A DNA stretch of 64,000 bases. Source: an uncultured Chloroflexia bacterium (GTDB lineage Bacteria; Chloroflexota; Limnocylindria; Limnocylindrales; CSP1-4). The position numbers were made by a program, and so were the translations under genes. Each line of letters starts with the position of its first letter. The first letter of the stretch is position 1. Shown piece by piece: positions 1,938-30,283 of the stretch. Where the stretch lies: positions 193,880-257,879 of the forward strand of contig CAVPEU010000008.1 of assembly GCA_963703575.1 (NCBI GenBank), written 5' to 3'. The notes under the pieces were generated by a model. It was given only the letters and a program-made list of their open reading frames with translations. It did no database searches and was not told the DNA's origin.

Positions 1938-1941
1938 AGCC

Positions 1942-2538: not shown

Positions 2539-2566
2539 CCGGATCGCTCCCTTCGTCCCCGGGGGG

Positions 2567-3451: not shown

Positions 3452-3465
3452 GTCGTGGTTCTCCC

Positions 3466-16153: not shown

Positions 16154-17197
16154 TCAGGGGCGCGGCCAGCCCTCGGCGTCGCCCTTCGGGCGCAGCTGCA
16201 CGAACTCGAACCCGAAGCGGCCCTTCACGCACAGGTGGCCGCCGCCAGCCGACGAATCGAGTGGCGAGGTCACCTTGACGATCGAGTTGTCCTGGACGTG
16301 GAGGGAGAGCGTGCAGCCCACGCCGCAGTACGGGCAGATCGTGTCCGTCGTCGTCTGGGCGGCTGGATCCCAGGTGCCGGCGACGCGCATCTCGTGCTCG
16401 GAGCGGAACATCAGTGCGCCGGTCGGGCAGACGCCGATGCAGTTGCCGCAGTAGACGCACGCCGACTCCGGGAGCGGGACGTCGAACTCGCTCGAGATCC
16501 GGGCGTCGAAGCCACGCCCGGCGACCGAGATCGCGAACGTGTTCTGGGCGTCCTCGCCGCATGCCTCGACGCACTTGTAGCAGAGGATGCAGCGCGAGTA
16601 GTCGCGGACGTACAGGTCGTTGTCCACCTTGACCGGCTGGGACACGGTCCGGGCCTCGGCCATCGCGCCCGTGGGCGCATGGTGGTGCCCGGGCTCGCGC
16701 GCGTCGCGCTCGCCCGCCGCCGCAGGTGCCGTCGCGGGACCGAACCGCGAGGCATCCGCCCCGTATCGGGCGGCGTACCGCGCCAGGTCTCCGTCCGGTT
16801 GGGTGGGCCCCGCCAGCGACAGGTCCACGGACGAGCCCAGCAGCTCGAGGACCATCCGGCGCGAATGGCGCACGCGCTCGCTGTCGGTCTGGATCTCCAT
16901 CCCGGGCTCCACGCGCCGCGAGCAGGCGGGGACCAGCACCCGTGACCCGGTGACCTCGACGACGCACACGCGGCACACGTTGACCGGGGTGAGGTTCTCG
17001 AGGTAGCACAGCGTGGGGGTGTCGATGCCGACGGACCGCGCGGCCTCGAGGATCGTGGAGCCGGCCGGGACGGTGACGGCCGCACCGTCGATGGTCAGCT
17101 CCACGTCCGGGACCTCGGGGGCGGGCGGCGGCTCGGGCACGCGTGTGGAGCGGGCCGGGGGCTGGACGAAGATGCGGCCGATGTCGAGCTCGGTCAT
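16154..17197 (-). CDS. Formate dehydrogenase alpha, N-terminal iron-sulfur module only (NuoG-like 2Fe-2S and two 4Fe-4S sites, plus the Mo-domain 4Fe-4S motif), ending prematurely
   Basis: 2Fe-2S motif CYLENLTPVNVCRVCVVEV...C; ferredoxin-type motifs CILCYKCVEAC and CVYCGNCIGVCP; then ICPYCGVGC...CVKGRFGFEFV, the FeS-0 motif of molybdopterin oxidoreductases. The ORF stops about 15 residues later. Start ATG overlaps the fdhB stop (ATGA). Confidence 0.75.
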   Translation of the reverse strand: MTELDIGRIFVQPPARSTRVPEPPPAPEVPDVELTIDGAAVTVPAGSTILEAARSVGIDTPTLCYLENLTPVNVCRVCVVEVTGSRVLVPACSRRVEPGMEIQTDSERVRHSRRMVLELLGSSVDLSLAGPTQPDGDLARYAARYGADASRFGPATAPAAAGERDAREPGHHHAPTGAMAEARTVSQPVKVDNDLYVRDYSRCILCYKCVEACGEDAQNTFAISVAGRGFDARISSEFDVPLPESACVYCGNCIGVCPTGALMFRSEHEMRVAGTWDPAAQTTTDTICPYCGVGCTLSLHVQDNSIVKVTSPLDSSAGGGHLCVKGRFGFEFVQLRPKGDAEGWPRP

Positions 17198-19227
17198 GCG
17201 CTCGATCCCGCGCCGCCCGCCGACGCCGTGCCGCCCGCCGACGGCGTGCCGCCCGCCGACGGCGTGCCGCCCGCGGAACCCGCGCCACCCTCGGACGCCG
17301 TGCCGTCGAAGTGGACGAGGCCCGTGCGGATCGCGCTCTCGATCGCCGACGACGCGGTCTGGCCGAGGCCGCAGATCGATGCGTCGCGCATCGCACGCGA
17401 GAGGTCGGCGAACCGGGTCATCTCCGCCGACAGGGAGCCCAGCGGCCGCCCGGCGACCAGCCGGGCAAGCAGTTCCTCCTGGCGGACGGTTCCCACCCGG
17501 CAGGGCACGCACTGGCCGCACGACTCGTCGCGGAAGAAGGCGGCGATCCGGCGGAGCACACCCGGCAGATCCGCCGTCTGGTCGAACACCAGCACCACTC
17601 CCGAGCCGAGCGTGGCGCCGGCGGCCCTCGTTCCCTCGAACGTGAGCGGCGTGTCCAGCCGGTCCGGGCCCACGAACGCTCCGGCGGCGCCGCCGAGCAG
17701 CACGGCCTGGATCGCCCGGCCGCCCGGGACGCCCCCGGCCAGTTCGATGACCTCGCCCAGCGTTGCCCCGAACGGCAGCTCGTACACACCGGGCCGGGTC
17801 ACGTCACCCGAGACGCAGAACAGCTTGGGCCCGGTGGAGCCCTCGGTGCCGATCCGCGCATACGCTTCGCCGCCCAGCCGCAGGATGAGCGGCACGTTAA
17901 CCAGGGTCTCCACGTTGTTGATCGCCGTGGGCTGGCCGAACAGGCCGAACTCCACCGGGAACGGCGGCTTGTTGCGCGGCTCCGGGCGACCGCCTTCGAT
18001 GGATTCGAACAGGGCGGTCTCCTCGCCGGCGATGTAGGCGCCGGCCCCGATGCGGAGCTCGATGTCGAACGACCAGCCGCTGCCGGCGACGTCGTCTCCC
18101 AGCAGGCCGGCCGCCCGCGCCTGGGCCAGCGCGCTCGCGAGGCGCTCCCGCGCCAGCGGGTACTCGCCGCGCAGGTACAGGTACCCGCGCGAGGCGCCGA
18201 CGGCGAACCCCTCGATCGTCATCGCCTCGAGGAGCGCGAACGGGTCCTCCTCCAGGATCGCGCGGTCCTTGAACGTGCCCGGCTCGGACTCGTCCGCGTT
18301 GCACACGACGTAGCGGGGCGTCGCCGGCTGAGCGGCCACCGCGGCCCACTTGCGGCCGGTGGGGAAGGCGGCGCCACCCCGGCCGACCAGCCGCGAGGCC
18401 GTGACCTCGGCGATGACGGCATCCGCGCCGATCGCGATGGCGCGCGCGAGGGCCTGGTAGCCGCCGGCGGCGCGGTAGGCGGCCAGGGAGGTCGGGTCCA
18501 CCCGGCCGACCCGGGCGAGGAGCCGCAGGTCCCCGGCACCGGCCTGGGGGGCGAGGCCCCGCACCCACTCGAGGGGCGCGGCGGCCGCGTCGCGCAGCTC
18601 GGCGCGGACCCGCTCCGGCCCGCCGTGCGCCACCTCCACGCACCAGCCGAGGGTGTCGGTCACGGCGTCCGCGCCGTCCAGCTCGCCGGCGACGAGAGCG
18701 CCCGCCTCCGGCCCGGCCACCGTCACCAGCATCGCGGGCGCACGCTCGCACTGGCCCAGGCACGGGCTCCGCTGCCACGTCCCGTCGCCGTCGTGGAGCG
18801 GCGTGCCGGGCGTCCCGACCGTCCGCTCCAGGTCCTCGCAGATCCGCTCCCCGCCGGCCAGCCGGCAGGCGATGTCGTCGCACACGTGGGCGACGACAGG
18901 CGGTCGCGGCGTCGTCGGCAGCAGCGTGTAGAAGGAGGCGACGCCATAGGCATCCGCGGGCGGCACCGACAGTCGGCGGGAGACGTGGTTGAGCGCCCCG
19001 CGACTCACCCAGCCGACCCGCGCGGCCGCCGCCTCCAGGGCCGGCAGCAGCAGGGTGCGTTGCGCCCGCGCCCCGTGTCCGCCCCGCGCGGCGCGCCCGT
19101 CCAGGGCGATGGCCCGGTCGCCGCCGTCCCAGCCGCCGCGCGCGGGCCCGATCTCCGGGTCGAGGACGGCGTCGATCGCCGCCCGCTCCTCGGGTGTCGC
19201 CGCGGGACCGACGACGTGGAGATCCAT
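17194..19227 (-). CDS. Formate dehydrogenase beta subunit, fused NuoE-like (2Fe-2S) and NuoF-like (FMN/NAD/4Fe-4S) domains
   Basis: NuoE-like thioredoxin-fold Cys motifs (CDDIAC...CLGQC). NuoF motifs (GRGGAAFPTG, CNADESEPGTFKDR, ESCGQCVPCR). C-terminal Gly/Ser/Ala-rich tail is encoded by a 21 bp x 3 tandem repeat. Confidence 0.8.
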   Translation of the reverse strand: MDLHVVGPAATPEERAAIDAVLDPEIGPARGGWDGGDRAIALDGRAARGGHGARAQRTLLLPALEAAAARVGWVSRGALNHVSRRLSVPPADAYGVASFYTLLPTTPRPPVVAHVCDDIACRLAGGERICEDLERTVGTPGTPLHDGDGTWQRSPCLGQCERAPAMLVTVAGPEAGALVAGELDGADAVTDTLGWCVEVAHGGPERVRAELRDAAAAPLEWVRGLAPQAGAGDLRLLARVGRVDPTSLAAYRAAGGYQALARAIAIGADAVIAEVTASRLVGRGGAAFPTGRKWAAVAAQPATPRYVVCNADESEPGTFKDRAILEEDPFALLEAMTIEGFAVGASRGYLYLRGEYPLARERLASALAQARAAGLLGDDVAGSGWSFDIELRIGAGAYIAGEETALFESIEGGRPEPRNKPPFPVEFGLFGQPTAINNVETLVNVPLILRLGGEAYARIGTEGSTGPKLFCVSGDVTRPGVYELPFGATLGEVIELAGGVPGGRAIQAVLLGGAAGAFVGPDRLDTPLTFEGTRAAGATLGSGVVLVFDQTADLPGVLRRIAAFFRDESCGQCVPCRVGTVRQEELLARLVAGRPLGSLSAEMTRFADLSRAMRDASICGLGQTASSAIESAIRTGLVHFDGTASEGGAGSAGGTPSAGGTPSAGGTASAGGAGSSA

Positions 19228-19337: not shown

Positions 19338-20441
19338 TCAGAGCCTGATCGGCGGCCCGTACCAGACAGACGCGGCCAGGATCGCGTACAGCCCGAGCAG
19401 CATCAGGCCCTCGAGCCAGGTGGACTCGCCGTCGAACACGACGAGCGCACCCAGGATGGCGGCCAGGGCGAGGCCCACCAGGAGCGTCGGGGCCAGCACG
19501 AGCGTCATCGGCACGGGCGAGATGAGCAGGCTGGCCAGCATCAGCACCGGCGTCAGCGCGATCGCGACCTGGAGGCTCGAGTTCTGGATCAGGCTGATCG
19601 CGAGGTCGGTCCGGTTCCGGAGCGCCGCCTGGATGCCGACCACGTTCTCCACGGCGTTGCCGGCGATCGCGACGATCACGAGGCCGACGAACGCCTCCGA
19701 CAGTCCGAGTGTCGCCATCGCCGGCCGCAGCGCCTCCACGAACCAGTCAGAGACCAGCGCCGCCCCGATGCCGGCGCCCGCCAGCAGGCCCAGGGCAAGC
19801 CCCATCGGCCACTGGTGCTCGGGGACCAGCTCCAGGCTCGAGGCGCCCTTGCCGCCGCCCAGCGAGAAGGGGATCGAGGCGGCGAACACGACCAGCAGGA
19901 CGATGGAGACGAACACGGAGATCTCGACGGCGTGACCCTGGTCGGGGCCGCCCGGCGATGTGGAGATCGTCGGGATCGCGATCGAGGCAACCGCCAGCAC
20001 CAGCACGATCGCGATGTTGCGCACCGGCGCGGCCTGGAACGTCTGGGCGCCGTGCCGGAGACCGCCGGCCACGAACGCGAGCCCCAGCACCAGCAGGCTG
20101 TTGCCGAGGATCGAGCCGATGAGCGCGGTCTGGACGAGGACCACGAGGCCCTCGCGCAGCGCGAACAGCGAGATGAACAGCTCCGGGAGGTTGCCCAGCG
20201 CGGACTGGAGGACGCCCGTGGTCCCGGGCCCGAACCGGCTGCCGAGCTGGTCCGTCCCCTCGCCGACGAGCGCCGCCAGGCCGGCCAGCGTGACCGCCGC
20301 GACCAGGAACACCGCGACCTCGGACGCGCCTGCGAGCCGGAGGACGAACGTGAGCCCGACACCGGCCACGGCGACCGCCAGCAGGACGAGCACCTTGCGG
20401 CCGAGGAGGGTGGCGAGCGGCGGCGCCGCGGTGGATGTCAT
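19338..20441 (-). CDS. Ca2+/H+ antiporter (CaCA/ChaA family)
   Basis: About 11 TM helices with two alpha-repeat signatures (GNLPELF and GNAVENVVG). Confidence 0.8.
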   Translation of the reverse strand: MTSTAAPPLATLLGRKVLVLLAVAVAGVGLTFVLRLAGASEVAVFLVAAVTLAGLAALVGEGTDQLGSRFGPGTTGVLQSALGNLPELFISLFALREGLVVLVQTALIGSILGNSLLVLGLAFVAGGLRHGAQTFQAAPVRNIAIVLVLAVASIAIPTISTSPGGPDQGHAVEISVFVSIVLLVVFAASIPFSLGGGKGASSLELVPEHQWPMGLALGLLAGAGIGAALVSDWFVEALRPAMATLGLSEAFVGLVIVAIAGNAVENVVGIQAALRNRTDLAISLIQNSSLQVAIALTPVLMLASLLISPVPMTLVLAPTLLVGLALAAILGALVVFDGESTWLEGLMLLGLYAILAASVWYGPPIRL

Positions 20442-20565: not shown

Positions 20566-20865
20566 ATGAGCGAGACCGGCGATCGTCCCTCACGCGTGGG
20601 CGTGCGCGAGCTCCGCCAGAACCTGTCCGTCTACCTGGACCGGGTGAAGGCCGGCGAGACGCTGGAGGTGACGGAGCACGGGCAGCCCGTCGCGCGCCTC
20701 ACGCCGAACCCGCCGCAGCGGCTGTCGCTCGTGGACCGGCTGATCGCGGAGGGGCGGATAACGCCGGCGAAGGGCGATCACCGGACGTTGCCGATGCCGC
20801 CGAAGATCCCAGGCCGTCCACTGAGTGAGATCCTGCGGGAGATGCGGGACGAGGAAGACCGGTGA
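20566..20865 (+). CDS. Type II antitoxin (Phd/YefM-like, VapB partner)
   Basis: 99-aa product (MSETGDRPSRVGVRELRQNLSVYLDRVKAGETLEVTEHGQPVARL...). Stop overlaps the start of the downstream PIN-domain gene. Confidence 0.6.
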   Translation: MSETGDRPSRVGVRELRQNLSVYLDRVKAGETLEVTEHGQPVARLTPNPPQRLSLVDRLIAEGRITPAKGDHRTLPMPPKIPGRPLSEILREMRDEEDR

Positions 20866-21254
20866 GCGAGCTCACCTACGCCGACGCATCCGCGCTCGTC
20901 AAGCTCGTCGTCGAGGAGCCGGAATCCCGGGCGATGCACCGATGGTTCGTTGAGGCCGGGCGGATCACGACGAGCCGGATCGGCATCATCGAGACCGTGC
21001 GCGCATCGTCGCGGCGCGATCACGACCCGGACCACCGGGACCGCGTCCTCAACGACGTCGAGGTGTTCGAGCTCGACGCCGCGATCGCCGGCGTCGCCGC
21101 ATCGCTGGAACCGTTCCTGCTCCGGACGCTGGACGCCATCCACCTGGCGACGGCGCTGGCGCTCGTGCCGGACCTCGATGCCTTCGTGACCTATGACGAT
21201 CGCCTCGCGGAGGCGGCGCGCGCGATCGGGCTTCCGGTGGTCCGACCGGCCTGA
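20862..21254 (+). CDS. vapC: PIN-domain ribonuclease toxin VapC
   Basis: 130 aa; PIN acidic residues in canonical spacing (DASALVKL...EVFELD...DAIHLATA...). Confidence 0.75.
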   Translation: MSELTYADASALVKLVVEEPESRAMHRWFVEAGRITTSRIGIIETVRASSRRDHDPDHRDRVLNDVEVFELDAAIAGVAASLEPFLLRTLDAIHLATALALVPDLDAFVTYDDRLAEAARAIGLPVVRPA

Positions 21255-21271: not shown

Positions 21272-21496
21272 TCAGTCCGGCGGCAGGTCCAGCCACCTCT
21301 CCCGGAGTTCCCCCGTCGCCAGCTCCGTCCGCGACGCGATCCCGAACCGCTCGAAAAGGCGAGCGAGATGCGTCTCCACGGTCCTGGCGCCGATCCCCAG
21401 CGCCGCGCCGATCTCGTCATTGCTGCGCCCCTCGGTCACGAGGCCGACCACCTCGAGCTCGCCGGGTTGGCGATCCGGCGCCGGCGCCCCGGCTGA
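21272..21496 (-). pseudogene. Start-less 3' remnant of a LuxR-family regulator gene (HTH domain only)
   Basis: Seventy-four sense codons plus stop, beginning immediately after the fdhA-C TGA stop and in its frame: SAGAPAPDRQPGELEVVGLVTEGRSNDEIGAALGIGARTVETHLARLFERFGIASRTELATGELRERWLDLPPD. Classic LuxR HTH, no ATG, no receiver domain. Confidence 0.4.
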
Positions 21497-23419
21497 TCAG
21501 CCGGTCGCGGCCGGGGCGCCGAGCTTCTCGACCCGGATCGCCGTCGCCTTGAACTCGGCCGTGCCGGACTTCGGGTCCGCCGCGTCGATCGTGAGGTTGT
21601 TGACCGCGACGTCGTCCTGGAAGTGGAGCGTCATGAACGCGAGGCCGGGCCGGAGCCCCTCGTCCACCCGGACCGGCGCCTCCACCTCGCCCCGGCGCGA
21701 GACCACGCGCACGCGCTCGCCCTCGGCCAGGCCCAGGCGCGCCACGTCCTCCGGTGACAGATCCAGCGTCTCGCCGCGGCGCCGCGGATAGCGGTAGCCG
21801 CCGGACTGGACGCCCGTGTTGTAGGAGTCCAGGTGCCGGCCGGTGGTCAGGCGGATCGGGAAGTCCGCGTCCAGCCGGTCCACCGGCGGGTCGTGCTCCA
21901 CCGGCACGAACGGCGCACGGTCGCCCGGGACCGGGTCCTCCCACAATCGGGAGTGGAGGAACAGCTCGCCCGGGTGCGTCTCGTCGTAGCACGGCCACTG
22001 GAGGCCGCCCTCCGCCTCCAGCCGCGCGTAGCTCATGCCCCGATGCACCGGGGAGAGGCTGCGGAGCTCGTTCCACACCGCCTCCGCGGACGGCTCACCC
22101 CAATCGTGGCCGAGGCCGCGCGCGATGTCGAAGATGATCGCCAGGTCGTCGCGTGCCTCGCCCGGCGGTGCCAGGGCGCGCCGCACCCGCTGGACGCGCC
22201 GCTCGGAGTTCGTGACCGTGCCCTCGCTCTCGGCCCACGCGGCGGCCGCCGGCAGTACGACGTCCGCCACCTCGGCAGTCGCGGTGAGGAAGATGTCCTG
22301 GACGACGAGGAAGTCGAGCCCGCGCAGCAGCAGCTCGGTCCGGTGGCGGTCCGCCTCGGACTGCATCGGGTTCTCGCCGATGACGTACAGGGCGGTCAGC
22401 TCGCCGCGCTCCATCGCGTCGAACATGCCGGTCAGGTGCCAGCCCTTCTTCGGCGGGACCTTGACCCCCCAGGCCGCGTCGAAGGGGGCCCGGAGCTCGT
22501 CCTGCTCCACGTGCTGGAAGCCCGGCAGCCGGTCCGGCAGGGCTCCCATGTCGCCGCCGCCCTGGACGTTGTTCTGGCCCCGCAGCGGGTTGATGCCGCT
22601 GCCGTACTTCCCGACGTGGCCGGTGAGCAGGGCGAGCGAGATCAGGGCGAGCACGTTGTCCACCGCGTTGTGGTGCTCGGTGATGCCCAGGGTCCAGCAG
22701 ATCATCGCGCGGTCCGCCGTCGCGTAGGCGTGGGCGGCCTCGCGGATGGCCTCCGCGGGGACACCGGTCTCCCGCTCCGCGTATTCGAGGGTGTATGGCT
22801 CGACGCCCGCTCGATACGCGTCGAAGCCGGACGTGGCGCGGGCGATGAACTCCTCATTCGCGAGACCGGCCGCGATGATCTCGCGGCCCATCGCGTTGGC
22901 GAGCGCGATGTCGGAGCCCACGTCGAGGCCCAGCCACAGGTCGGCCCACTGGGCGCTCGACGTCCGCCGCGGGTCCACCGCGATCAGCCGGGCGCCACGG
23001 TGCACCCCCCGGAGGAGGTGGTGGAAGAAGATCGGGTGCGTCTCCCGGGCGTTGCTGCCCCACAGGAGGACGAGATCCGTCTCCTCAGCCTCTCGATATG
23101 AGCTGGTACCGCCGCCAGCGCCGAACACGGTCGCCAGACCGGCGACAGAGGGGGCGTGTCAGGTGCGGTTGCAGCTGTCGATGTTGTTGCTGCCCAGGAC
23201 GACACGGGAGAGCTTCTGGGCCGCGAAGTTGACCTCGTTGGTCGACTTGCTGCAGCTGAAGATCCCGTACGTCCGGGAGCCGTGCGCCTCGCCAGCGGCC
23301 CGGAGCCCCGCGACCGTCCTCGCCAGCGCCTCGTCCCAGGTCGCGGGACGCAGGACGCCGGTGCTTCGGTCGCCGTCGCGGACGAGCGGCGTGGTCAGGC
23401 GGACATACTCCTTCGGCAC
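21497..23419 (-). CDS. fdhA: Formate dehydrogenase alpha, catalytic molybdopterin module; selenoprotein with in-frame UGA (Sec) at 23159..23161
   Basis: GTG start with AAGAGG Shine-Dalgarno and an in-frame stop two codons upstream. The two ORFs 23159..23419 and 21497..23128 are contiguous in one frame across a TGA: ...NIDSCNRT-TGA-HAPSVAGLATVFGAGGGTSS..., matching the fdhF ...CARV-U-HGPSVAGL Sec motif. The remainder is molybdopterin oxidoreductase plus C-terminal molybdopterin-binding domain. Confidence 0.85.
23105..23158 (-). promoter_or_regulatory. Bacterial SECIS element immediately 3' of the Sec-UGA of fdhA
   Basis: mRNA after UGA: CACG CCCCUCU GUCGCC GGUCU GGCGAC CGUG UUCGG. This gives a 4-bp lower stem, a 6-bp upper stem and a GGUCU apical loop, near-identical in architecture to the E. 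coli fdhF SECIS (loop GGUCU). Confidence 0.6.
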
Positions 23420-23763
23420 TGGTCACCTCTTGGTGGAGGGTCCGACTTGGGGAGTGTACTGCGCCGGAAATGTGCGCCACGTTCGGCGCAACGGATGCGG
23501 TCCCGTCCGTTGTTCGGTCGCGCGCTGCCGTGTCTGCAGGACCCGCCATCCGGCTCCAGGCTCCCATCGGAGCTGCCCGGCGGGCGGTTCCGGGTCCGTG
23601 AGTCACGAGATCGCGCCGACCGCGGTCAGCTCGGCTGCCTCGCCCCGATTCGCGGGTCTCCCAGGCACGCGCCGGCCACCTGCCGGCACGCGCCGCCCGC
23701 CTGCCGGAGCGCGACCGCGCACGCCCTGCACACGCCGCCCGCCTACCGGAGCGCGCCGCCCGC

Positions 23764-24819
23764 CTACCGGAGCGCGACGGCCGCCTCGCCCGCCTCCACG
23801 TTGCCGACCCGCCACGCCGCGACGCCCGCCGCCGCCAGGTCCGCCTCCACCTCCGCGAGCCGGTCCGCCGTCACGGCGGCGAGGAGCCCCCCGGATGTCT
23901 GCGGATCGTGGGCGAGCGCCACGAGCTCGGGCGGGACCCCGATCGCGACGTCCAGTGCGGGTGCCGTGAACCGCCGGTTGTGCCCCGCGCCCCCGGTCTC
24001 CACGCCGGCCCGCGCGAGATCGAGCGCGCCGTCGAGGGCGGGCAACGCGCCGGCCTCGAACACCAGCCGGACCCCCGACGCGCGGGCCATCTCGAGCCCG
24101 TGACCCAGGAGCCCGAACCCGGTCACGTCAGTCGCGCCGCGGATGCCGTGACGCACGAGGACCTCGGAAGCGGCGCGGTTGAGCGCCCTCATCTGGTTCA
24201 CGGCCGCGGCCAGGTCCGCGTCGCTCGTCCGGCCCTGCCGCCGTCCGCTGACCAGCAGACCCGTTCCCAGGGGCTTGGTGAGCAGGAGCGCGTCCCCGGG
24301 CCGCGCGCCGCCCTTGCGCAGCAGCCGGTCCGGGTGCGCCGCGCCGATCACGGCCAGCCCGTACTTCGGCTCAGGGTCCCGGATCGTGTGACCACCGGCC
24401 AGGATGCCGCCAGCCTCGCGCACCTTCGCCGCCGCCGCCTCGAGCACCGCGGTCAGCGCGTCGTTCGGGAAGTCCTCTGGGAACGCCGCGATCGAGAGCG
24501 CGAACAGCACCCGCCCGCCCATCGCGAACACGTCCGACAGCGCGTTCGCCGCAGCGATCTCCCCGTAGGCCGCCGGGTCGTCCACGAGCGGCGGGAAGAA
24601 GTCGAGCGTGCCGAGGATCGCGAGGTCGTCCGAGATGCGGTACGCGGCGGCGTCGTCGGGCGGATCGAGGCCGGCCAGGAGCGCGGGATCCGGGGCCGAA
24701 CCCGCGCCCAGCCCGGCCAGCGCCTCGGCCAGCAGGTCCGCGCCCAGCTTCGCCGCGCAGCCGCCGCAGTCGGTGAGGTCGGTCAGGCGGATCGGGGCGA
24801 GGTCGGGACGCGCCGTCAT
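23764..24819 (-). CDS. selD: Selenophosphate synthetase (selenide, water dikinase) SelD, Cys form
   Basis: N-terminal LTDLTDCGGCAAKLG motif; AIR-synthase-like fold motifs (GGHT, DVTGFGLLGH). Directly upstream of the fdhA selenoprotein gene on the same strand. Confidence 0.85.
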   Translation of the reverse strand: MTARPDLAPIRLTDLTDCGGCAAKLGADLLAEALAGLGAGSAPDPALLAGLDPPDDAAAYRISDDLAILGTLDFFPPLVDDPAAYGEIAAANALSDVFAMGGRVLFALSIAAFPEDFPNDALTAVLEAAAAKVREAGGILAGGHTIRDPEPKYGLAVIGAAHPDRLLRKGGARPGDALLLTKPLGTGLLVSGRRQGRTSDADLAAAVNQMRALNRAASEVLVRHGIRGATDVTGFGLLGHGLEMARASGVRLVFEAGALPALDGALDLARAGVETGGAGHNRRFTAPALDVAIGVPPELVALAHDPQTSGGLLAAVTADRLAEVEADLAAAGVAAWRVGNVEAGEAAVALR

Positions 24820-24887
24820 GCGCGGATCATAGGCGGGTCGGCCCGGGCGATCATCGGCGGGTCGGCCCGGGCGCTACCATCGCGGGC

Positions 24888-24984
24888 GGGAGCGGAGGGG
24901 TCCCGGTGGGCTCCCCGGTCTTCAAAACCGGTGGCGCGGCGCCCGGCGTCGCGCGGTGGGTTCGACTCCCATGCGCTCCCGCCA
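24888..24984 (+). tRNA. selC: tRNA-Sec (selC), anticodon UCA at 24922..24924
   Basis: 97 nt. Acceptor GGGAGCG pairs with CGCUCCC, then discriminator G and encoded CCA. Anticodon arm CCGGU-CUUCAAA-ACCGG (loop identical to E. coli tRNA-Sec), a long GC-rich variable arm, and T arm GGUUCGACUCC. Located between selD and selA. Confidence 0.75.
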
Positions 24985-24997
24985 TCCTCTTGAGGCG

Positions 24998-26158
24998 TCA
25001 GGCGGACGGCGTTCCGAAGCGGCCGGGATCGAGCTCGGCCGCGATCTCCGGTCCACGTCCCAGCACCAGGTCCGCGATCAGCCGCGCCGACGCCGGGCCG
25101 GTGGAGATGCCCCACGGCCCGTGCCCCGCGCACACGAACAGGTTGCGCCGGCCGGGGACGGCCCCGATCAACGGCCGCCCGTCCGCGCTCTGGGGCCGGG
25201 CGCAGGCGCGGACCCCGCGGATCGGCGCCTCGGCGATACCCGGCACGAAGCGGCTCGCGCGCACCAGGATCCGTTCCATCCAGGCCGCCGGGTCCGGCTC
25301 ACGCGGCAGGAACGTGGACCCGACGGCCGCCGCGCCCGGCAGGGGAACGAGGCTGGACTCGACCTCGTCGGGCTCGCCGGCATCGGTGTCGCCGCCCGGC
25401 GTGGGCTCGCCGCCGGCGTCGAGCACGGCCTCGATCCCTGCCTCCTCCAGGGCGTGGCGCGGTGGCGCCGCCAGCTCGGCCTCCACCACGACCCCCCAGC
25501 GCGGGGCGATCGGCGCCCACAGCCCCGAGGGATCGAGCAGCGCCGGGGTCCAGGGGCCGGCGGCAACCACGACGGCGCCGGCCGGGATCACCTGGCCGTT
25601 CACGCGCACGCCGACCACCGCGTCGCCCTCGACCTCGAGCGTCGCCCCATGCCCCAGGCGGATCACCGCGCCCCGCGACTCGGCCAGCGTGGCGTACGCG
25701 TAGGTGGAGGCGCCGGGCATCACCGGATAGCCGATGTCGACGCGGCAGGCCCACAGGTCCTCGCCGACCGCCGGTTCCAGCCGCCGCAGCGCCTCGCCAC
25801 CGACCACGTCGAGTGCCAGCTCCGGGAAGGGACCCTCGATCAGCGTCCTCTGGCGTCGCGCCGCCGCCTCCGAGGTCGAGATGTAGAGCATCCCGACCGG
25901 ATGCTCCGCGAACGGGAAGGCGTTCGAGATCGTCGCCAGCTCGCGGTACAGGCCGACGGTCTCGCGATAGAGGGCGGCCAGCACGGGGTCGAACGGATGC
26001 TGCACGACGCCCGAGTTGGCGCCCGACGCCCCCGACGCCAGGCCCTCTCGCTCGACCAGCACGACACGCGCCCCCGCCGCGCCCAGGAAGGCGGCCGTCG
26101 CGGTGCCCACGATCCCGCCGCCGACCACCACCACGTCCGGTGCCGCGCCCGTCCGCAT
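24998..26158 (-). CDS. FAD-dependent oxidoreductase (DAO family; glycine/D-amino-acid oxidase-like)
   Basis: N-terminal Rossmann motif (DVVVVGGGIVGTATAAFLGAAGARVVLVERE) and C-terminal CAGHGPWGIS. Start taken at MRTGAAPD; divergent from selA. Confidence 0.65.
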   Translation of the reverse strand: MRTGAAPDVVVVGGGIVGTATAAFLGAAGARVVLVEREGLASGASGANSGVVQHPFDPVLAALYRETVGLYRELATISNAFPFAEHPVGMLYISTSEAAARRQRTLIEGPFPELALDVVGGEALRRLEPAVGEDLWACRVDIGYPVMPGASTYAYATLAESRGAVIRLGHGATLEVEGDAVVGVRVNGQVIPAGAVVVAAGPWTPALLDPSGLWAPIAPRWGVVVEAELAAPPRHALEEAGIEAVLDAGGEPTPGGDTDAGEPDEVESSLVPLPGAAAVGSTFLPREPDPAAWMERILVRASRFVPGIAEAPIRGVRACARPQSADGRPLIGAVPGRRNLFVCAGHGPWGISTGPASARLIADLVLGRGPEIAAELDPGRFGTPSA

Positions 26159-26220: not shown

Positions 26221-27657
26221 GTGAGCGTCGCCCATCGGCCCAGCCATAGCCCGGGCCACCCGCCCGGCCACCCGCCCGGCCACCCGCCCAGCCATCCGCC
26301 CAGCGTCGAACGGCTGCTTGGGCTCGTCCGCGAGCAGGTCGAGCCATCCGAGCCCGCGGCCCTGACCGCGCTTGCCCGGGCGGTGCTCGACGAGGAGCGC
26401 CGGCGGCTGGCCGCCGGCGCGCCGCCGACCCCGGAGCCCGAGCTGGCCGACGCGCTCCTGGCGCGCCTCGCCGATCTCGACGATCCACGGTCCACGATTC
26501 CGCCCCGCGTGATCAACGCGACGGGCGTGATCCTGCACACGAACCTCGGCCGCGCGCCCTGGCCGCGGGCGGCCCGCACCGCCGCGACGCTGGCCGCCGG
26601 CTCCTACGGCTACCTGGAGCTGGACGAGGCGACCGGCCGCCGGGGCGCCAGGTTCCGGGTCGCCGAGGAGCACCTGGTCGCCTTGACCGGCGCCGGGGAC
26701 GCGATGGTCGTCACCAACAACGCGGCCGCGCTGCTGCTCGCCGTGGGGCTCGCCGGGCGACGGGGGTCGGTCGTCGTGTCGCGCGGCGAGCTGGTCGAGA
26801 TCGGCGGCGGGGTGCGGATCCCGGAGGTCGTGGCGCGGGCCGGCGCGCGGCTGGTCGAGGTCGGCACGACGAACCGGACGCGCGCCGCGGACTTCGAGCC
26901 GCCGCTCGCCGACGGCCGGGCACGGGCGGTGCTGCGGGTACATCCGTCCAACTTCTCCATGCAGGGCTTCACCGAGACGGCGGACCTCGCGGAGGTCGCC
27001 GCGATCGCCCACCGCCACGGCGCGCTCGTGATCGACGACCTGGGCTCCGGGGCGCTGCTGGACACGGCGACATTCGGCCTCGTCCACGAGCCGATGCCGG
27101 CGGAGCGTCTCGCCGCCGGCGCGGACGCCGTCCTGTTCAGCGGCGACAAGCTCGTCGGCGGGCCGCAGGCGGGGCTGATCGTCGGTCGCGCCGACCTGGT
27201 GGCGAAGCTCCGGCGGGACCCGCTGGCCCGGGCGATCCGCCCGGACAAGGCGATCCTCGCCGGGGTTGCCGCCACGCTCGCGATCTACCGAGCCGGGCGG
27301 GCGGCGAGCGACATCCCCGTGTGGCGGCTGATCGCCCGGGAGCCGGAGGAGCTCCGGGAGCGTGCCGAGTGGATCCGGGGGCTGGCGGCCGCGGCCGGAC
27401 GGGCGGACGTCACGGTGGTGGAGCTCGAGTCGCCGGTCGGGGGCGGCTCACTGCCCGGCCAGACGCTGAGGTCCTTCGGCGTCTCCGTGCCGGCCGCCTC
27501 GCCCACGCGCGCGCTCGCCATCCTGCGCCGGGGCCCGGACCGGATCCTGGCCCGGATCGTGGATGATGCGATCGCGTTCGACCTGAGAACTGTCGAACCG
27601 TTCGAGGACGGTACGATCGCCCGGCGGATCGCGGACGTGCCGCCGCCCCGGCGATGA
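26221..27657 (+). CDS. selA: L-seryl-tRNA(Sec) selenium transferase SelA
   Basis: VINATGVILHTNLGRAP motif and the PLP-lysine region FSGDKLVGGPQAG; about 470 aa. Confidence 0.85.
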   Translation: MSVAHRPSHSPGHPPGHPPGHPPSHPPSVERLLGLVREQVEPSEPAALTALARAVLDEERRRLAAGAPPTPEPELADALLARLADLDDPRSTIPPRVINATGVILHTNLGRAPWPRAARTAATLAAGSYGYLELDEATGRRGARFRVAEEHLVALTGAGDAMVVTNNAAALLLAVGLAGRRGSVVVSRGELVEIGGGVRIPEVVARAGARLVEVGTTNRTRAADFEPPLADGRARAVLRVHPSNFSMQGFTETADLAEVAAIAHRHGALVIDDLGSGALLDTATFGLVHEPMPAERLAAGADAVLFSGDKLVGGPQAGLIVGRADLVAKLRRDPLARAIRPDKAILAGVAATLAIYRAGRAASDIPVWRLIAREPEELRERAEWIRGLAAAAGRADVTVVELESPVGGGSLPGQTLRSFGVSVPAASPTRALAILRRGPDRILARIVDDAIAFDLRTVEPFEDGTIARRIADVPPPRR

Positions 27658-29609
27658 GCGGCCCGATGAGTGGTCCCCTGAGCAGCCCGATGGGCGACCC
27701 GATGAGCGGTCCCGTGGGGTCGTCGCCGGCCAGCGTCGTCGTGGGCACGGCCGGGCACATCGACCACGGCAAGACAGCGCTCCTGCGCGCCCTCACCGGC
27801 ATCGACGCGGACCGGCTGCCGGAGGAGCGGCGCCGCGGCATCACGGTCGACGTGGGGTACGCCCACCTCGCGCTCCCGGACGGGTCGGTCGTGGATTTCG
27901 TGGACGTGCCGGGCCACGACCGGCTGGTGGGGAACATGCTCGTGGGCGCCGGCGAGATCGACGCCGCGATGCTCGTCGTGGCGGCGGACGACGGGCCGAA
28001 CGCCCAGACCCTGGAGCACCTGGAGCTGCTGGATGCACTGGGGATCCGCGACGGGCTGGCCGTGGTGACGAAGGCCGACCTGGCGCCGGACGACGGGCGC
28101 CGCGCGGAGCTGGTGGCGGAGGTTCGCGCGCTGCTGGACCGGACCGCCCTCGCCGGCGCGCCGGTGCTGGTGGCGTCGGCGGTGACGGGCGAAGGGGTCG
28201 AAGCCGTGCGGGCGACGATCGGGGAGGTGGCGCGGGACGTGGCGGCACGGTTGCCTGCCGGCGGTCCGCCGCGGCTCGCGATCGACCGCGTGTTCGCGGT
28301 CCGGGGCCGCGGGACGGTGGTCACCGGCAGCCTGCGGGGCGGACAGGTGACGGCCGGCATGACGCTCCGGCTGGTGCCCGACGATCACGGGGTCCGCGTG
28401 CGCGAGGTGCAGGTCCGCGGGGCGACCGTGAGCGACGCCCACGGCGGACGGACGGCGCTGCTGCTGGGCGGGATCGAAGCGGATGTCCTGCGGCGGGGCC
28501 AGGTCCTGACGGCGGACCCCGTGGTCGCCGCGACGTCCCGGGTGCTGGTCGCGGTCCGGCCGGTGGCCGCGCTGGAACCCGGCCGCCCGTCGCCGCCCGC
28601 GCCCGCCGATCGCGAGCGGCTGCGGCTCCATGCCGGTACCGCGCAGGCCGAGGCGCTCGTGGTGCGCGGGCCGCGCGAGGCGATCGAGCTGGCCGATGGG
28701 TCGTCTGTCGCGCTGCTCCGCCTGGACCAGGCGATCGCCGTGGCGCCCGGCGACGCGTTCGCCCTGCGCCGTCCGTCGCCGGGCTCCACGGCCGGCGGCG
28801 GCGTCATCCTCGATCCGGACCCGCCCCGCGGCGTCTCCCGGCGACGCCTGAGCCCGTCCCGGGCGATGGCCCTCGCGGCATCGCCGGTGGGTGGCGCGCC
28901 AGCGAGGCTGGACCTCCACGGCGCGTTGCGCGGACCCGCTGGCTGGGCGCTGGCCGCGGACGTCGCCGACGCGCTGGAGTCCCGCGCCCGCGACCTCGTC
29001 ACCGCCCACCACGACGCCGAGCCCGCGTCGCCGGGCATGCCGGCGCCCGCGTTGCGGCAGGACCTCGCGCTCGCGGCCCGTCGCCTGGTGACGCTCGGTC
29101 GGGCGGCCGCCGACGAGGTGGCGCGAGGCGTCGTGGACGCGCTCGTGGCCCGCGGCGCGCTCGCCCGGGACGGCGATCGGCTGCGGGATGCGGCGCGCGC
29201 GCCGGGGTTGCCCCGGGACACGCTCGCCGCGATGGACCGCCTGGAGCAGGCGCTCGCGGTCGCGGCGCCGCCGGGTCTCGCGAACGCCGCACGAGCGGCG
29301 GGGTGCCCGCCCGAGGGGATCCGCGCCCTGGAGGCTGCCGGCCGGATCGTCCGGCTGGAGGACGACCTCGCCTGGGCGGCGACGACGTATCGGGACCTCG
29401 TGACGCGTGCTCTCGCGATGGCCGCCACCGGGCCCCTCTCGCCGGCCGCGTTCCGCGATGCGACCGGCAGCAGCCGCCGCTACGTGCTCGTGATCCTCGA
29501 GGACCTGGACCGGCGAGGGCTGTTGCGGCGCACGGACGCGGGCCACGTCCTCGGCCCCACGACGCTGGCCCGGACGCGCGAGCGGGCGGCCACGGCGGCC
29601 TCCGAGTGA
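27654..29609 (+). CDS. selB: Selenocysteine-specific elongation factor SelB
   Basis: GTPase motifs (GHIDHGKT, DVPGH, TKAD) followed by a long winged-helix C-terminal extension. Start overlaps the selA stop (ATGA). Confidence 0.85.
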   Translation: MSGPMSGPLSSPMGDPMSGPVGSSPASVVVGTAGHIDHGKTALLRALTGIDADRLPEERRRGITVDVGYAHLALPDGSVVDFVDVPGHDRLVGNMLVGAGEIDAAMLVVAADDGPNAQTLEHLELLDALGIRDGLAVVTKADLAPDDGRRAELVAEVRALLDRTALAGAPVLVASAVTGEGVEAVRATIGEVARDVAARLPAGGPPRLAIDRVFAVRGRGTVVTGSLRGGQVTAGMTLRLVPDDHGVRVREVQVRGATVSDAHGGRTALLLGGIEADVLRRGQVLTADPVVAATSRVLVAVRPVAALEPGRPSPPAPADRERLRLHAGTAQAEALVVRGPREAIELADGSSVALLRLDQAIAVAPGDAFALRRPSPGSTAGGGVILDPDPPRGVSRRRLSPSRAMALAASPVGGAPARLDLHGALRGPAGWALAADVADALESRARDLVTAHHDAEPASPGMPAPALRQDLALAARRLVTLGRAAADEVARGVVDALVARGALARDGDRLRDAARAPGLPRDTLAAMDRLEQALAVAAPPGLANAARAAGCPPEGIRALEAAGRIVRLEDDLAWAATTYRDLVTRALAMAATGPLSPAAFRDATGSSRRYVLVILEDLDRRGLLRRTDAGHVLGPTTLARTRERAATAASE

Positions 29610-30283
29610 ACCGCCCGCCCGACGTCACGGCAATCGTGCTGGCGGGTGGTGCCTCGTCCCGCTTCGGCGGCGACAAGCTGGCCATCGACCTCGGCGGCCG
29701 GCCGCTGCTGCACCACGCGCTCGAGGCCGTCGCCCTGGTCGCCGACCGCATCGTCGTCGTCATCGCTCCCGGGGCCCCCGAGCCGGCGGCTCCGCCATCG
29801 CTGGTATCGCGCATCGCGATCGCCCATGACGCGGCGGCCTACGGGGGCCCGCTCGCGGGCCTGGCCGCGGGCCTGGCAGCCGTGGGTCTGGCGGCCGTGG
29901 GCCCCGCCGTCCGCGATGACCATCCGCGCATCGTGCTCGTCGTCGGGGGCGACATGCCCGGTCTCGTGCCGGCGGTGCTCCGGCTCCTCCTTGACCGCCT
30001 GGGCGCGGAGGATGGGCTCGCCGCGATGACCCTCGACGCATCGCCGCCGTCGCCGCTGCCGCTGGCGATCCGGCCAGGTGCCGCGCGGGACGGGCTCGCG
30101 GCCTGCCTGGCGAGCGGCCGGCGCAGTCTCCGCTCGCTCCTCGAGGCCGTTCCCTCGGCGATGGTTCCCGCCGCCGACTGGCGGGCCATCGATCCCTCGG
30201 CCGCCACCCTGCGGGACATCGACACGCGGGGCGATCTCGATACCCGGGGCGATCTCGACACCGGCGATCTCGACCGTCGTTGA
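29606..30283 (+). CDS. mobA: Molybdenum cofactor guanylyltransferase MobA
   Basis: AIVLAGGASSRFGGDKL motif. GTG start overlaps the selB stop (GTGA). Bis-MGD cofactor is required by formate dehydrogenase. Confidence 0.75.
   Translation: MNRPPDVTAIVLAGGASSRFGGDKLAIDLGGRPLLHHALEAVALVADRIVVVIAPGAPEPAAPPSLVSRIAIAHDAAAYGGPLAGLAAGLAAVGLAAVGPAVRDDHPRIVLVVGGDMPGLVPAVLRLLLDRLGAEDGLAAMTLDASPPSPLPLAIRPGAARDGLAACLASGRRSLRSLLEAVPSAMVPAADWRAIDPSAATLRDIDTRGDLDTRGDLDTGDLDRR

What the first reader, a model, noticed from the sequence alone, without database searches (positions are those of the whole stretch)
21497..23419. Selenocysteine-containing formate dehydrogenase: in-frame TGA plus fdhF-like SECIS in a high-GC genome
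Two adjacent minus-strand ORFs are in the same frame, separated only by a TGA at 23159..23161. Reading through gives ...NIDSCNRT-U-HAPSVAGLATVFGAGGG..., which reproduces the conserved Sec context of FdhF-type formate dehydrogenases (...CARV-U-HGPSVAGL). Immediately 3' of the TGA the mRNA folds into a hairpin with a GGUCU apical loop (CACG/CCCCUCU/GUCGCC-GGUCU-GGCGAC/CGUG), the hallmark of the E. coli fdhF SECIS. Both a SECIS and a full sel toolkit (selD, selC, selA, selB) are present, so Sec is used here even though high-GC Gram-positives usually carry the Cys form.
Basis: partly seen in the sequence, partly recalled or inferred. Interest (0 to 1): 0.7.

Follow-up and report, generated by a model that had tools for sequence, protein, structure and literature searches.

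The report
Selenocysteine formate dehydrogenase, split alpha subunit
This is a real selenocysteine-coding gene for the catalytic part of a metal-dependent formate dehydrogenase, next to the genes that make and insert selenocysteine; that is the commonest bacterial selenoprotein, so it is largely ordinary, except that the enzyme's large subunit is encoded in two separate genes and the genome is a soil Chloroflexota relative, not a Gram-positive.

Summary
On the minus strand, one TGA (23159-23161) interrupts a 640-codon frame. Read-through gives NNIDSCNRT-U-HAPSVAGL, and U aligns with Sec140 of E. coli FdhF and Cys386 of R. capsulatus FdsA. All 80 related species loci carry TGA at this codon, so it is not a sequencing error.

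A 6-bp hairpin with a GGUCU loop (23130-23146) sits in the same register as the E. coli fdhF element. It pairs in every relative, and its synonymous sites are nearly fixed while the flanking ones vary.

selD, tRNA-Sec, selA, selB and a mobA-like gene lie alongside. The closest relatives are Chloroflexota (Limnocylindria) MAGs, not high-GC Gram-positives.

That domain ends a separate Fe-S protein (16154-17197), encoded after a NuoE-NuoF fusion. The gene order catalytic subunit, NuoEF, Fe-S subunit recurs in several phyla.

Verdict: a typical Sec formate dehydrogenase in kind, with a split-subunit architecture for which my literature searches found no description.

The parts
21497..23419 (-). 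Catalytic subunit gene (640 codons including Sec86-87 region; GTG start 23419-23417, stop TGA 21499-21497): Mo/W-bis-pyranopterin formate dehydrogenase domains without the N-terminal [4Fe-4S] domain
   Evidence: Pfam Molybdopterin 7-433 and Molydop_binding 523-626, no Molybdop_Fe4S4. TIGR01591 Fdh-alpha 631.9 bits, profile positions 53-672 only. PDB matches to HDCR FdhF, FdhF and FdsA residues 308-937.
23159..23161 (-). In-frame TGA = selenocysteine codon (residue 87 of the read-through protein)
   Evidence: Aligns with X (Sec140) of 1aa6 and Cys386 of 6tg9. TGA in 80/80 related loci. A 67%-identical homologue (P0144) has Cys in the same context, DSCNRT-C-HAPSVAGL.
23130..23146 (-). SECIS hairpin: stem GUCGCC/GGCGAC, loop GGUCU (23140-23136), starting 12 nt after the UGA
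   Evidence: 100% paired in 69 distinct sequences, one compensatory change. Synonymous sites nearly fixed. RNAalifold recovers the same hairpin. Same register as E. coli fdhF.
23426..23431 (-). Shine-Dalgarno-like AAGAGG, 6 nt before the GTG start
   Evidence: Read directly from the sequence.
23453..23458 (-). -10-like hexamer TACACT, 33 nt upstream of the start (inferred promoter element)
   Evidence: TACACT, TAGACT, TACAAT or TATAAT at a comparable position in most related loci. The consensus scan finds no full sigma-70 site.
23764..24819 (-). selD, selenide water dikinase (no in-frame TGA, so not the Sec form)
   Evidence: TIGR00476 338.9 bits against a cut-off of 125; AIRS and AIRS_C domains.
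24886..24984 (+). selC, tRNA-Sec (anticodon UCA)
   Evidence: ARAGORN; Rfam RF01852 70.4 bits against 47.
26221..27657 (+). selA, L-seryl-tRNA(Sec) selenium transferase
   Evidence: TIGR00474 424.5 bits against 267.9; Pfam SelA.
27654..29609 (+). selB, Sec-specific elongation factor with a C-terminal winged-helix SECIS-binding domain
   Evidence: TIGR00475 283.3 bits against 242.25; GTP_EFTU and SelB-wing_3.
29594..30283 (+). mobA-like NTP transferase (start uncertain), probably guanylylation of the molybdopterin cofactor
   Evidence: Pfam NTP_transf_3 92.9 bits.
17194..19227 (-). NuoE-NuoF fusion (diaphorase: [2Fe-2S], FMN/NAD(P) site, [4Fe-4S])
   Evidence: Pfam 2Fe-2S_thioredx, Complex1_51K, SLBB and NADH_4Fe-4S. 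nuoF_fam 433.7 bits (below its 558.65 cut-off) and weaker NuoE/FdsG-type matches. Follows the catalytic gene in about 65 related loci.
16154..17197 (-). Fe-S subunit = the N-terminal third of an FdsA-type alpha subunit: [2Fe-2S], two ferredoxin-type [4Fe-4S] and, at its C-terminus, the Molybdop_Fe4S4 (FS0/A1) domain. Its ATG overlaps the nuoEF stop (ATGA).
   Evidence: Pfam Fer2_4, Fer4 and Molybdop_Fe4S4 (390-441 of the long ORF). Matches FdsA residues 17-304 and TIGR01591 profile positions 1-50. 16 invariant Cys in 49 orthologues. Fused homologue P0127 maps 9-277 here and 281-905 on the catalytic gene.

Best explanation
Recoding. The UGA at 23161-23159 is decoded as selenocysteine. The 17-nt hairpin 12 nt downstream (GUCGCC-GGUCU-GGCGAC) acts as a bacterial SECIS. 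It is bound by the SelB encoded 4.5 kb away, which delivers Sec-tRNA(Sec) made by the neighbouring selC, selA and selD.

Product. The 640-aa product is the catalytic module of a Mo- or W-bis-pyranopterin formate dehydrogenase. Sec87 is the metal ligand, followed by the catalytic His88 and the Arg of the RGQ motif.

Complex. The module carries no iron-sulfur cluster of its own. I infer that it docks onto the C-terminal [4Fe-4S] domain of a separate 347-aa Fe-S protein. Electrons would run Sec-Mo/W, then FS0, then two [4Fe-4S], then [2Fe-2S], to the [4Fe-4S] and FMN of a NuoE-NuoF fusion protein, and on to NAD(P)+. The reverse direction would reduce CO2. This makes a three-polypeptide version of the FdsABG / Fdh1AB type soluble enzyme.

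Shown: the conserved UGA, the conserved hairpin, the sel genes, the domain content and the conserved three-gene order. Inferred: SelB binding, subunit assembly, the electron path, the metal and the nucleotide partner.
For: Sec codon: U aligns with Sec140 of FdhF and the Cys ligand of FdsA. TGA is conserved in 80/80 species loci, and all 120 listed close protein clusters are gene calls truncated to 522-600 aa, 81-85% of the query. TGA is also the normal stop of 17 of 23 confident genes in the window, so recoding must be local.

SECIS: 100% pairing, one compensatory change and suppressed synonymous variation limited to codons 5-9 after the UGA. Gly is GGT in 64/69 sequences here but varies freely at neighbouring Gly codons. 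The register matches E. coli fdhF.

Machinery: selD, selA and selB score above equivalog cut-offs, and tRNA-Sec is present.

Split enzyme: FdsA residues 17-304 map on the Fe-S ORF and 308-937 on the catalytic ORF. TIGR01591 positions 1-50 and 53-672 are divided the same way, and fused homologue P0127 maps as 9-277 and 281-905. The order catalytic gene, nuoEF, Fe-S gene holds in about 65 loci, directly adjacent in many of them.

Electron path: 16 invariant Cys give [2Fe-2S] plus three [4Fe-4S]. The only FdsA cluster missing is the His/Cys3 cluster A4, which in R. capsulatus FDH lies off the direct chain A1-A2-A3-A5-B6-FMN, at the dimer interface (PMC7171172).
Against: No expression, 75Se or activity data exist; every relative is a MAG.

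Rfam does not recognise the hairpin (SECIS_3 11.5 bits against 63), and its stability is not exceptional for this G+C content. Covariation rests on a single sequence (L072).

The hairpin lacks the bulged U of the E. coli element.

The catalytic protein alone falls just under the TIGR01591 cut-off (631.9 against 666.25).

Assembly of the two alpha-subunit halves is inferred from homology and gene order only. In this window the catalytic gene is separated from nuoEF by about 2.3 kb of unrelated genes, so co-regulation is not assured.

No fdhD/fdsC or fdsD homologue was seen among the window genes scanned.
Confidence: 0.85

Rival explanations
1. The TGA is a sequencing or assembly error, or marks a pseudogene; the true codon is TGC/TGT, or the gene is dead.
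For: A single window cannot exclude an error. A Cys form of the same family exists (P0144).
Against: TGA occurs at the same codon in 80/80 independently assembled species loci. There are no other stops or frameshifts. Identity to relatives is 73-88% across the TGA, and GC3 is 0.94-0.95 on both sides. Synonymous sites of the downstream hairpin are under constraint.
Confidence: 0.01
2. UGA terminates here. The cell makes an 86-aa peptide and, from the GTG at 23128, a 543-aa protein, as every automatic annotation assumes.
For: All 120 listed database entries are called this way. TGA is the usual stop codon in this window.
Against: The 543-aa product would lack the metal ligand and the adjacent His. 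The GTG lies inside the conserved ATVFGAG peptide and has no ribosome-binding site. The 86 codons upstream are conserved as protein in all loci. The sel genes and the constrained hairpin would be left unexplained.
Confidence: 0.03
3. UGA is recoded, but to cysteine or another residue rather than selenocysteine. This could happen through a tRNA-Sec-like tRNA charged with Cys, or when selenium is scarce.
For: Such tRNA-Sec-like systems are reported in a paper I did not read beyond its title and abstract listing (PMC5424206). Cys is functional at this site in homologues.
Against: selA and selD, which are needed only to make Sec-tRNA(Sec), are adjacent and score as equivalogs. The tRNA scores as tRNA-Sec.
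Confidence: 0.02
4. It is a selenoprotein, but not a formate dehydrogenase: a related Mo-bisPGD oxidoreductase with another substrate or partner, for example one that is nitrate-reductase-like or quinone-linked like ForCE/YjgC.
For: The TIGR01591 score is just under the cut-off. JGI names many relatives 'YjgC'. NasC-type models also match at 396 bits. The missing A4 cluster and the split are atypical.
Against: The U-H ... R-G-Q active-site signature is the class I FDH pattern (PMC8808070), whereas YjgC has Gln in place of His. The best PDB matches are all formate dehydrogenases, with E-values from 1e-142 to 1e-122. NasC reaches 396 bits against a cut-off of 1100. The Fe-S fragment adds the 52 bits missing from TIGR01591. 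The NuoEF partner fits NAD(P)-linked FDHs.
Confidence: 0.08

Closest known systems
E. coli FdhF (formate dehydrogenase H, Sec140) and its fdhF SECIS
   Same: Mo-bisPGD catalytic fold. Sec followed by His, and the Arg in NP(L/V)RGQNNVQG. The UGA is followed by CAC GNC CCN UCN GUN GCN GGU CUG, so GGUCU lies at nucleotides 22-26 counted from the U of UGA in both.
   Different: FdhF carries its own N-terminal [4Fe-4S] domain (residues 1-60); here the match starts at FdhF residue 61. The E. coli hairpin closes on a GGUC loop and has a bulged U (the role of the bulge is from memory). The window has an uninterrupted 6-bp G+C-rich stem with a 5-nt loop. From memory, unverified: the Moorella thermoacetica fdhA SECIS used in SelB co-crystals has the same GCC-GGUCU-GGC apex.
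Soluble NAD+-dependent FdsABG(D) of Rhodobacter capsulatus / Cupriavidus necator (PDB 6tg9/6tga)
   Same: Same module set. The catalytic domain matches FdsA 308-937 and the Fe-S protein matches FdsA 17-304. NuoF- and NuoE-like diaphorase is present. The clusters of the direct chain A1-A2-A3-A5 are retained (PMC7171172).
   Different: The alpha subunit is split into two genes between FS0 and the catalytic domain, and the gene order is permuted (catalytic, NuoEF, Fe-S). Sec replaces Cys386. The off-pathway dimer-interface cluster A4 (His117/Cys121/124/130) is missing in all 49 orthologues. NuoE and NuoF are fused. No FdsD or FdsC was seen in the window.
Methylobacterium extorquens Fdh1AB (tungsten FDH, PDB 7e5z/7vw6)
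   Same: A beta subunit with NuoE-like and NuoF-like parts in one chain (from memory) and an FdsA-like alpha subunit; the match covers query 23-633 against chain 372-981.
   Different: Fdh1A is a single chain of about 990 aa with a Cys ligand (from memory); here the alpha is split and uses Sec.
Formylmethanofuran dehydrogenase FwdB/FwdD
   Same: Precedent for an FDH-type catalytic unit divided between two polypeptides. PMC7171172 notes that the C-terminus of FdsA is replaced by an extra subunit in Methanothermobacter wolfeii.
   Different: That split removes the C-terminal Molydop_binding domain. Here the C-terminus is intact and the N-terminal cluster domain is the separate piece.

Membership tests
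Mo/W-bisPGD formate dehydrogenase catalytic subunit (FdhF/FdhA, TIGR01591) | Molybdopterin oxidoreductase domain plus C-terminal molybdopterin dinucleotide-binding domain | tested here: met
   PF00384 228.7 bits and PF01568 97.8 bits.
Mo/W-bisPGD formate dehydrogenase catalytic subunit (FdhF/FdhA, TIGR01591) | Sec or Cys metal ligand followed by His, and the conserved Arg (class I pattern C/U-H ... R-G-Q) | tested here: met
   U-H aligns with X-H of 1aa6 and C-H of 6tg9 and 7qv7. PLRGQNNVQG is aligned. Classes as defined in PMC8808070.
Mo/W-bisPGD formate dehydrogenase catalytic subunit (FdhF/FdhA, TIGR01591) | N-terminal [4Fe-4S] (FS0, Molybdop_Fe4S4) domain in the same polypeptide | tested here: not met
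   No PF04879 on the catalytic ORF. Only TIGR01591 positions 53-672 match. The domain sits on ORF 16154-17197.
Mo/W-bisPGD formate dehydrogenase catalytic subunit (FdhF/FdhA, TIGR01591) | Score above the curated equivalog cut-off | tested here: not met
   631.9 bits against 666.25 for the catalytic ORF alone. The Fe-S ORF adds 51.9 bits on positions 1-50.
Mo/W-bisPGD formate dehydrogenase catalytic subunit (FdhF/FdhA, TIGR01591) | Formate oxidation / CO2 reduction activity | not testable with these tools
   Needs enzyme assays.
Bacterial SECIS element (fdhF type) | Stem-loop immediately 3' of the UGA, with a small apical loop carrying G (GU) about 16-37 nt from the UGA (criteria recalled from bSECISearch, from memory) | tested here: met
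   Stem at nt 16-21/27-32 and loop GGUCU at nt 22-26 counted from the U of UGA. Same register as E. coli fdhF.
Bacterial SECIS element (fdhF type) | Evolutionary conservation of the structure beyond what the protein sequence requires | tested here: met
   100% pairing in 69 distinct sequences, one compensatory pair. Third-position entropy is 0-0.38 bit inside the hairpin and 1.1-1.8 bit outside. The five lowest of 18 degenerate codons are consecutive; the chance of this is about 14/8568 (own arithmetic).
Bacterial SECIS element (fdhF type) | Match to a curated covariance model | tested here: not met
   Rfam SECIS_3 11.5 bits against a gathering score of 63, E = 7, though aligned in the correct register.
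Bacterial SECIS element (fdhF type) | Binding by SelB and UGA read-through that depends on the hairpin | not testable with these tools
   Needs binding or reporter assays.
Sec-decoding trait (selA, selB, selC, selD) | All four genes present | tested here: met
   selD 338.9 against 125, selA 424.5 against 267.9, selB 283.3 against 242.25. tRNA-Sec 70.4 against 47.
NAD+-dependent FdsABG-type soluble formate dehydrogenase | NuoF-like FMN/NAD subunit and NuoE-like [2Fe-2S] subunit | tested here: met
   One 677-aa fusion with 2Fe-2S_thioredx, Complex1_51K and NADH_4Fe-4S. Next to the Fe-S gene in about 65 loci.
NAD+-dependent FdsABG-type soluble formate dehydrogenase | Single alpha subunit of about 950 aa with one [2Fe-2S] and four [4Fe-4S] clusters, including His-ligated A4 | tested here: not met
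   Alpha split into 347 + 640 aa. The A4 motif is absent in 49/49 orthologues, which share 16 invariant Cys.
NAD+-dependent FdsABG-type soluble formate dehydrogenase | Accessory FdsC/FdhD and FdsD genes in the operon | tested here: inconclusive
   None among the 30-odd window proteins scanned against Pfam. Not every ORF was scanned, and the genes may lie elsewhere.

The most novel reading that the evidence does not exclude
The split architecture is a distinct subclass of soluble formate dehydrogenase that my searches did not find described. The alpha subunit is divided exactly at the FS0/catalytic-domain boundary, and the genes are ordered catalytic (Sec), NuoE-NuoF fusion, Fe-S subunit. The off-pathway A4 cluster has been lost. 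The arrangement is conserved in MAGs labelled Chloroflexota (Limnocylindria), Rokuibacteriota/Methylomirabilota, Acidobacteriota and Planctomycetota. Gene callers systematically truncate the catalytic gene. If so, abundant soil lineages carry a selenium-dependent NAD(P)-linked FDH/CO2 reductase in which the cluster nearest the active site is supplied in trans.
Probability: 0.45. Interest if true: 0.45.

Novelty: new variant of a known kind. Interest (0 to 1): 0.3.

Why it matters
A Sec-containing formate dehydrogenase beside selABCD is the textbook bacterial selenoprotein locus: FdhA occurs in 89% of Sec-using bacteria (PMC1794560).

Three points have some practical value.

1. All 120 listed close database entries are truncated at the UGA and often named 'YjgC-like oxidoreductase'. 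Formate metabolism and selenium dependence are therefore probably under-called in MAGs of soil Chloroflexota and the other phyla carrying this gene.

2. The alpha subunit is naturally cut between FS0 and the catalytic domain. This shows that the proximal cluster can be supplied by another polypeptide, which is relevant to engineering modular FDH/CO2 reductases.

3. The family lacks only cluster A4. That supports the view from the R. capsulatus structure that A4 is dispensable for the Mo-to-FMN wire (PMC7171172).

Tried and rejected
- Single-sequence folding as evidence for the SECIS: z-scores of -0.05 (71 nt) and -1.51 (37 nt) are not significant at 73.5% G+C. I relied on comparative data instead.
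- Rfam at gathering thresholds found only tRNA-Sec. In E-value mode, SECIS_3 scored 11.5 bits (E = 7), below any usable threshold.
RNAalifold's alternative outer pairs are also weakly supported.
- A sigma-70 and terminator consensus scan of 21300-23800 found nothing.
- Literature searches for a split FdsA, or for an FDH in Limnocylindria, found nothing relevant. A search for the hairpin apex sequence returned no paper, so the recalled identity to the Moorella SECIS stays unverified.
- A GC3-based scan for further in-frame TGAs flagged only the gene's own stop codon followed by a GerE fragment. It missed the Sec codon itself, because GC3 is 0.83 in the 60 codons after it. It therefore says nothing about other selenoproteins.
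I reran it with the 553 aa after the UGA.
- I looked for an FS0-like remnant near the catalytic gene: tblastn of fused homologue P0127 finds the N-terminal domains only at 16196-17098.
- I did not run structure prediction. Only single chains can be modelled, and the open question is about the complex.
Full report
**1. Observation**

On the minus strand, the ORFs 23419..23162 and 23158..21497 share a frame and are separated by a single TGA at 23161..23159. Third-position G+C is 0.94 before the TGA and 0.95 after it, so both parts look translated in this frame. The window has 73.5% G+C, and TGA is the ordinary stop of 17 of 23 confident genes. UGA is therefore not reassigned genome-wide.

**2. 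Is it a Sec codon?**

- Pfam finds the Molybdopterin (7-433) and Molydop_binding (523-626) domains.
- Against the PDB, the best matches are all formate dehydrogenases: T. kivui HDCR FdhF, the M. hungatei Fdh, an F420-dependent Fdh, E. coli FdhF, and FdsA of R. capsulatus.
- In the residue-level alignments, the TGA position falls on the X (Sec140) of E. coli FdhF 1aa6 (CARV-X-HGPSVAGL) and on the Cys ligand of FdsA 6tg9. The catalytic His follows, and the Arg of PLRGQNNVQG is aligned. This is the class I FDH active-site pattern, C/U-H ... R-G-Q (PMC8808070).
- A scan of one genome per species returned 80 loci at 73-88% protein identity. Every one has TGA at this codon in the context NN(I/V)DSCNRT-*-HAPSV(A/V)GL.
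- All 120 listed close protein clusters are gene calls of 522-600 aa covering 81-85% of the query, that is, truncated at the UGA.
- A 67%-identical homologue (P0144) has Cys in the same context, the usual Sec/Cys alternation.

A sequencing error or a pseudogene is excluded for practical purposes.

**3. The SECIS**

The hairpin GUCGCC-GGUCU-GGCGAC lies at 23146..23130, 12 nt after the UGA. Taken alone it is not more stable than shuffled sequence of this composition. Rfam gives only a sub-threshold SECIS_3 match of 11.5 bits against 63, although in the right register. The evidence is comparative.

- Across 81 sequences (69 distinct), the six pairs are formed in 100% of cells. There are two wobble variants and one compensatory C-G to G-C change, in L072.
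- RNAalifold recovers the same hairpin.
- The five codons that make the hairpin (Val-Ala-Gly-Leu-Ala) have third-position entropies of 0, 0.11, 0.38, 0.11 and 0 bit. The thirteen other codons of the stretch whose residue has four or more synonymous codons have 1.1-1.8 bit.
- Gly is GGT in 64/69 sequences here, which keeps U24 of the loop, whereas neighbouring Gly codons use all four synonyms.
- The five lowest of 18 such codons forming one consecutive run has a chance of about 14/8568 (own arithmetic).
- E. coli fdhF, read from NC_000913, has UGA CAC GGC CCA UCG GUU GCA GGU CUG. GGUCU therefore occupies nucleotides 22-26 from the U of UGA in both genes.

**4. The machinery**

- selD lies at 23764..24819 (-) and has no in-frame TGA.
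- tRNA-Sec lies at 24886..24984 (+).
- selA lies at 26221..27657 (+) and selB at 27654..29609 (+).
- All pass curated thresholds.
- A mobA-like gene follows selB.

**5.

The catalytic protein has no Molybdop_Fe4S4 domain. It matches TIGR01591 only from profile position 53, at 631.9 bits, just under the 666.25 cut-off.

About 4 kb downstream on the same strand lies a NuoE-NuoF fusion (17194..19227). Overlapping its stop codon (ATGA) is a 347-aa Fe-S protein (16154..17197), which ends with the missing domain. That protein matches TIGR01591 positions 1-50 and FdsA residues 17-304. The catalytic protein matches FdsA 308-937. A fused 911-aa homologue (P0127, 45-47% identical) maps onto the window as residues 9-277 on the Fe-S gene and 281-905 on the catalytic gene, and nowhere else.

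The order catalytic gene, nuoEF, Fe-S gene recurs in about 65 of the 80 loci. The genes are directly adjacent in many of them, including MAGs labelled Rokuibacteriota/Methylomirabilota, Acidobacteriota and Planctomycetota. In none of the loci does the upstream in-frame extension encode a cluster domain. In this window and its closest relatives, unrelated genes have been inserted between the catalytic gene and nuoEF.

**6. Electron path (inferred)**

Forty-nine Fe-S orthologues share exactly 16 invariant cysteines: C-x10-C-x2-C-x13-C ([2Fe-2S]), two C-x2-C-x2-C-x3-C motifs, and the FS0 motif. The His-x3-C-x2-C-x5-C motif of FdsA cluster A4 is replaced by a variable linker.

In the R. capsulatus structure, the direct chain is bis-MGD, A1, A2, A3, A5, B6, FMN. 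A4 lies off the path at the dimer interface (PMC7171172). The split enzyme therefore keeps every cluster of the direct wire. The NuoEF fusion has no extra ferredoxin domains, which argues for a simple NAD(P)-linked enzyme rather than a bifurcating one. That last point is inference.

**7. Host**

Most of the related loci are MAGs of Chloroflexota labelled Limnocylindria/Limnocylindrales, or 'uncultured Chloroflexia' from soil surveys. The closest are 87-88% identical at protein level, and L001, L002 and L004 share synteny from selB to the histidine kinase. The 'high-GC Gram-positive' premise is not supported. Sec use is already recorded in Chloroflexi, Acidobacteria and Actinobacteria. FdhA is the most widespread bacterial selenoprotein and frequently neighbours selABC (PMC1794560).

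**8. Verdict**

The core interpretation (Sec, SECIS, sel genes) is right. The taxonomic framing and the lower helix are wrong. The enzyme is the catalytic two-thirds of a split FdsA-like subunit, not an FdhF-like stand-alone protein.

In kind this is the commonest bacterial selenoprotein locus. The split, permuted, A4-less architecture is a variant for which my limited literature searches found no description. The library is incomplete, so I put the probability that it is undescribed near 0.45. Overall interest is modest (0.3).

Noticed in passing
window 21316-21496 (-): A LuxR/GerE helix-turn-helix fragment (Pfam GerE 48 bits, profile positions 7-54 of 57) begins right after the formate dehydrogenase stop codon TGA (21497-21499), in the same reading frame. 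It has no receiver or other N-terminal domain and no evident start. It looks like a gene remnant and is absent from the closest relative, L001, where the antiporter gene follows after 133 nt.
   Followed up: partly
window 20566-21254 (+): A Phd/YefM antitoxin (20566-20865) and a PIN-domain toxin (20862-21254) form a VapBC-like pair on the opposite strand. They are inserted between the catalytic gene and the rest of the operon, next to a CaCA-family cation antiporter (19338-20441, -).
   Followed up: partly
window 23453-23458 (-); loci L001-L080 upstream of the catalytic gene: A -10-like hexamer TACACT lies 33 nt upstream of the GTG start. TACACT, TAGACT, TACAAT or TATAAT occurs at a comparable distance in most related loci, in several phyla, which suggests the catalytic gene has its own promoter. 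The consensus scan finds no full sigma-70 site.
   Followed up: partly
window 16154-17197 (-), residues about 120-195 of the Fe-S protein: Where FdsA has the His/Cys3 motif of cluster A4, this family has a variable, Ala/Pro-rich linker with a recurrent (E)PGHHH histidine-rich motif, seen in most orthologues from several phyla. Its role is unknown.
   Followed up: no
window 13533-15999 (-): A GAF-HisKA_3 histidine kinase (14179-15999) and a NarL/LuxR-type response regulator (13533-14204) follow the Fe-S gene on the same strand. The kinase is full-length and syntenic in L001, L004 and L031 (72-76% identity), with partial matches at the ends of L002, L036 and L044. It may regulate the operon.
   Followed up: no
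window 24998-26100 (-): An FAD-dependent oxidoreductase (Pfam DAO, 156 bits) sits on the opposite strand between selC and selA. It is syntenic in L001, L002 and L004 (47-54% identity).
   Followed up: no
window 219-5001 (-) and 12180-12704 (-): A NapC/NirT-like multihaem cytochrome, a thioredoxin-like ResA, CcsA and ResB (system II cytochrome c biogenesis) and a Rieske protein. The host appears to be respiratory, which is notable because Sec-type FDHs are described as oxygen-sensitive (PMC7171172).
   Followed up: no
window 23096-23158 (-): Third-position G+C falls to 0.83 in the 60 codons after the UGA, against 0.94-0.95 elsewhere in the gene. Part of this comes from fixed GGT and TCA/ACA codons, a local departure from codon bias around the recoding site.
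   Followed up: partly
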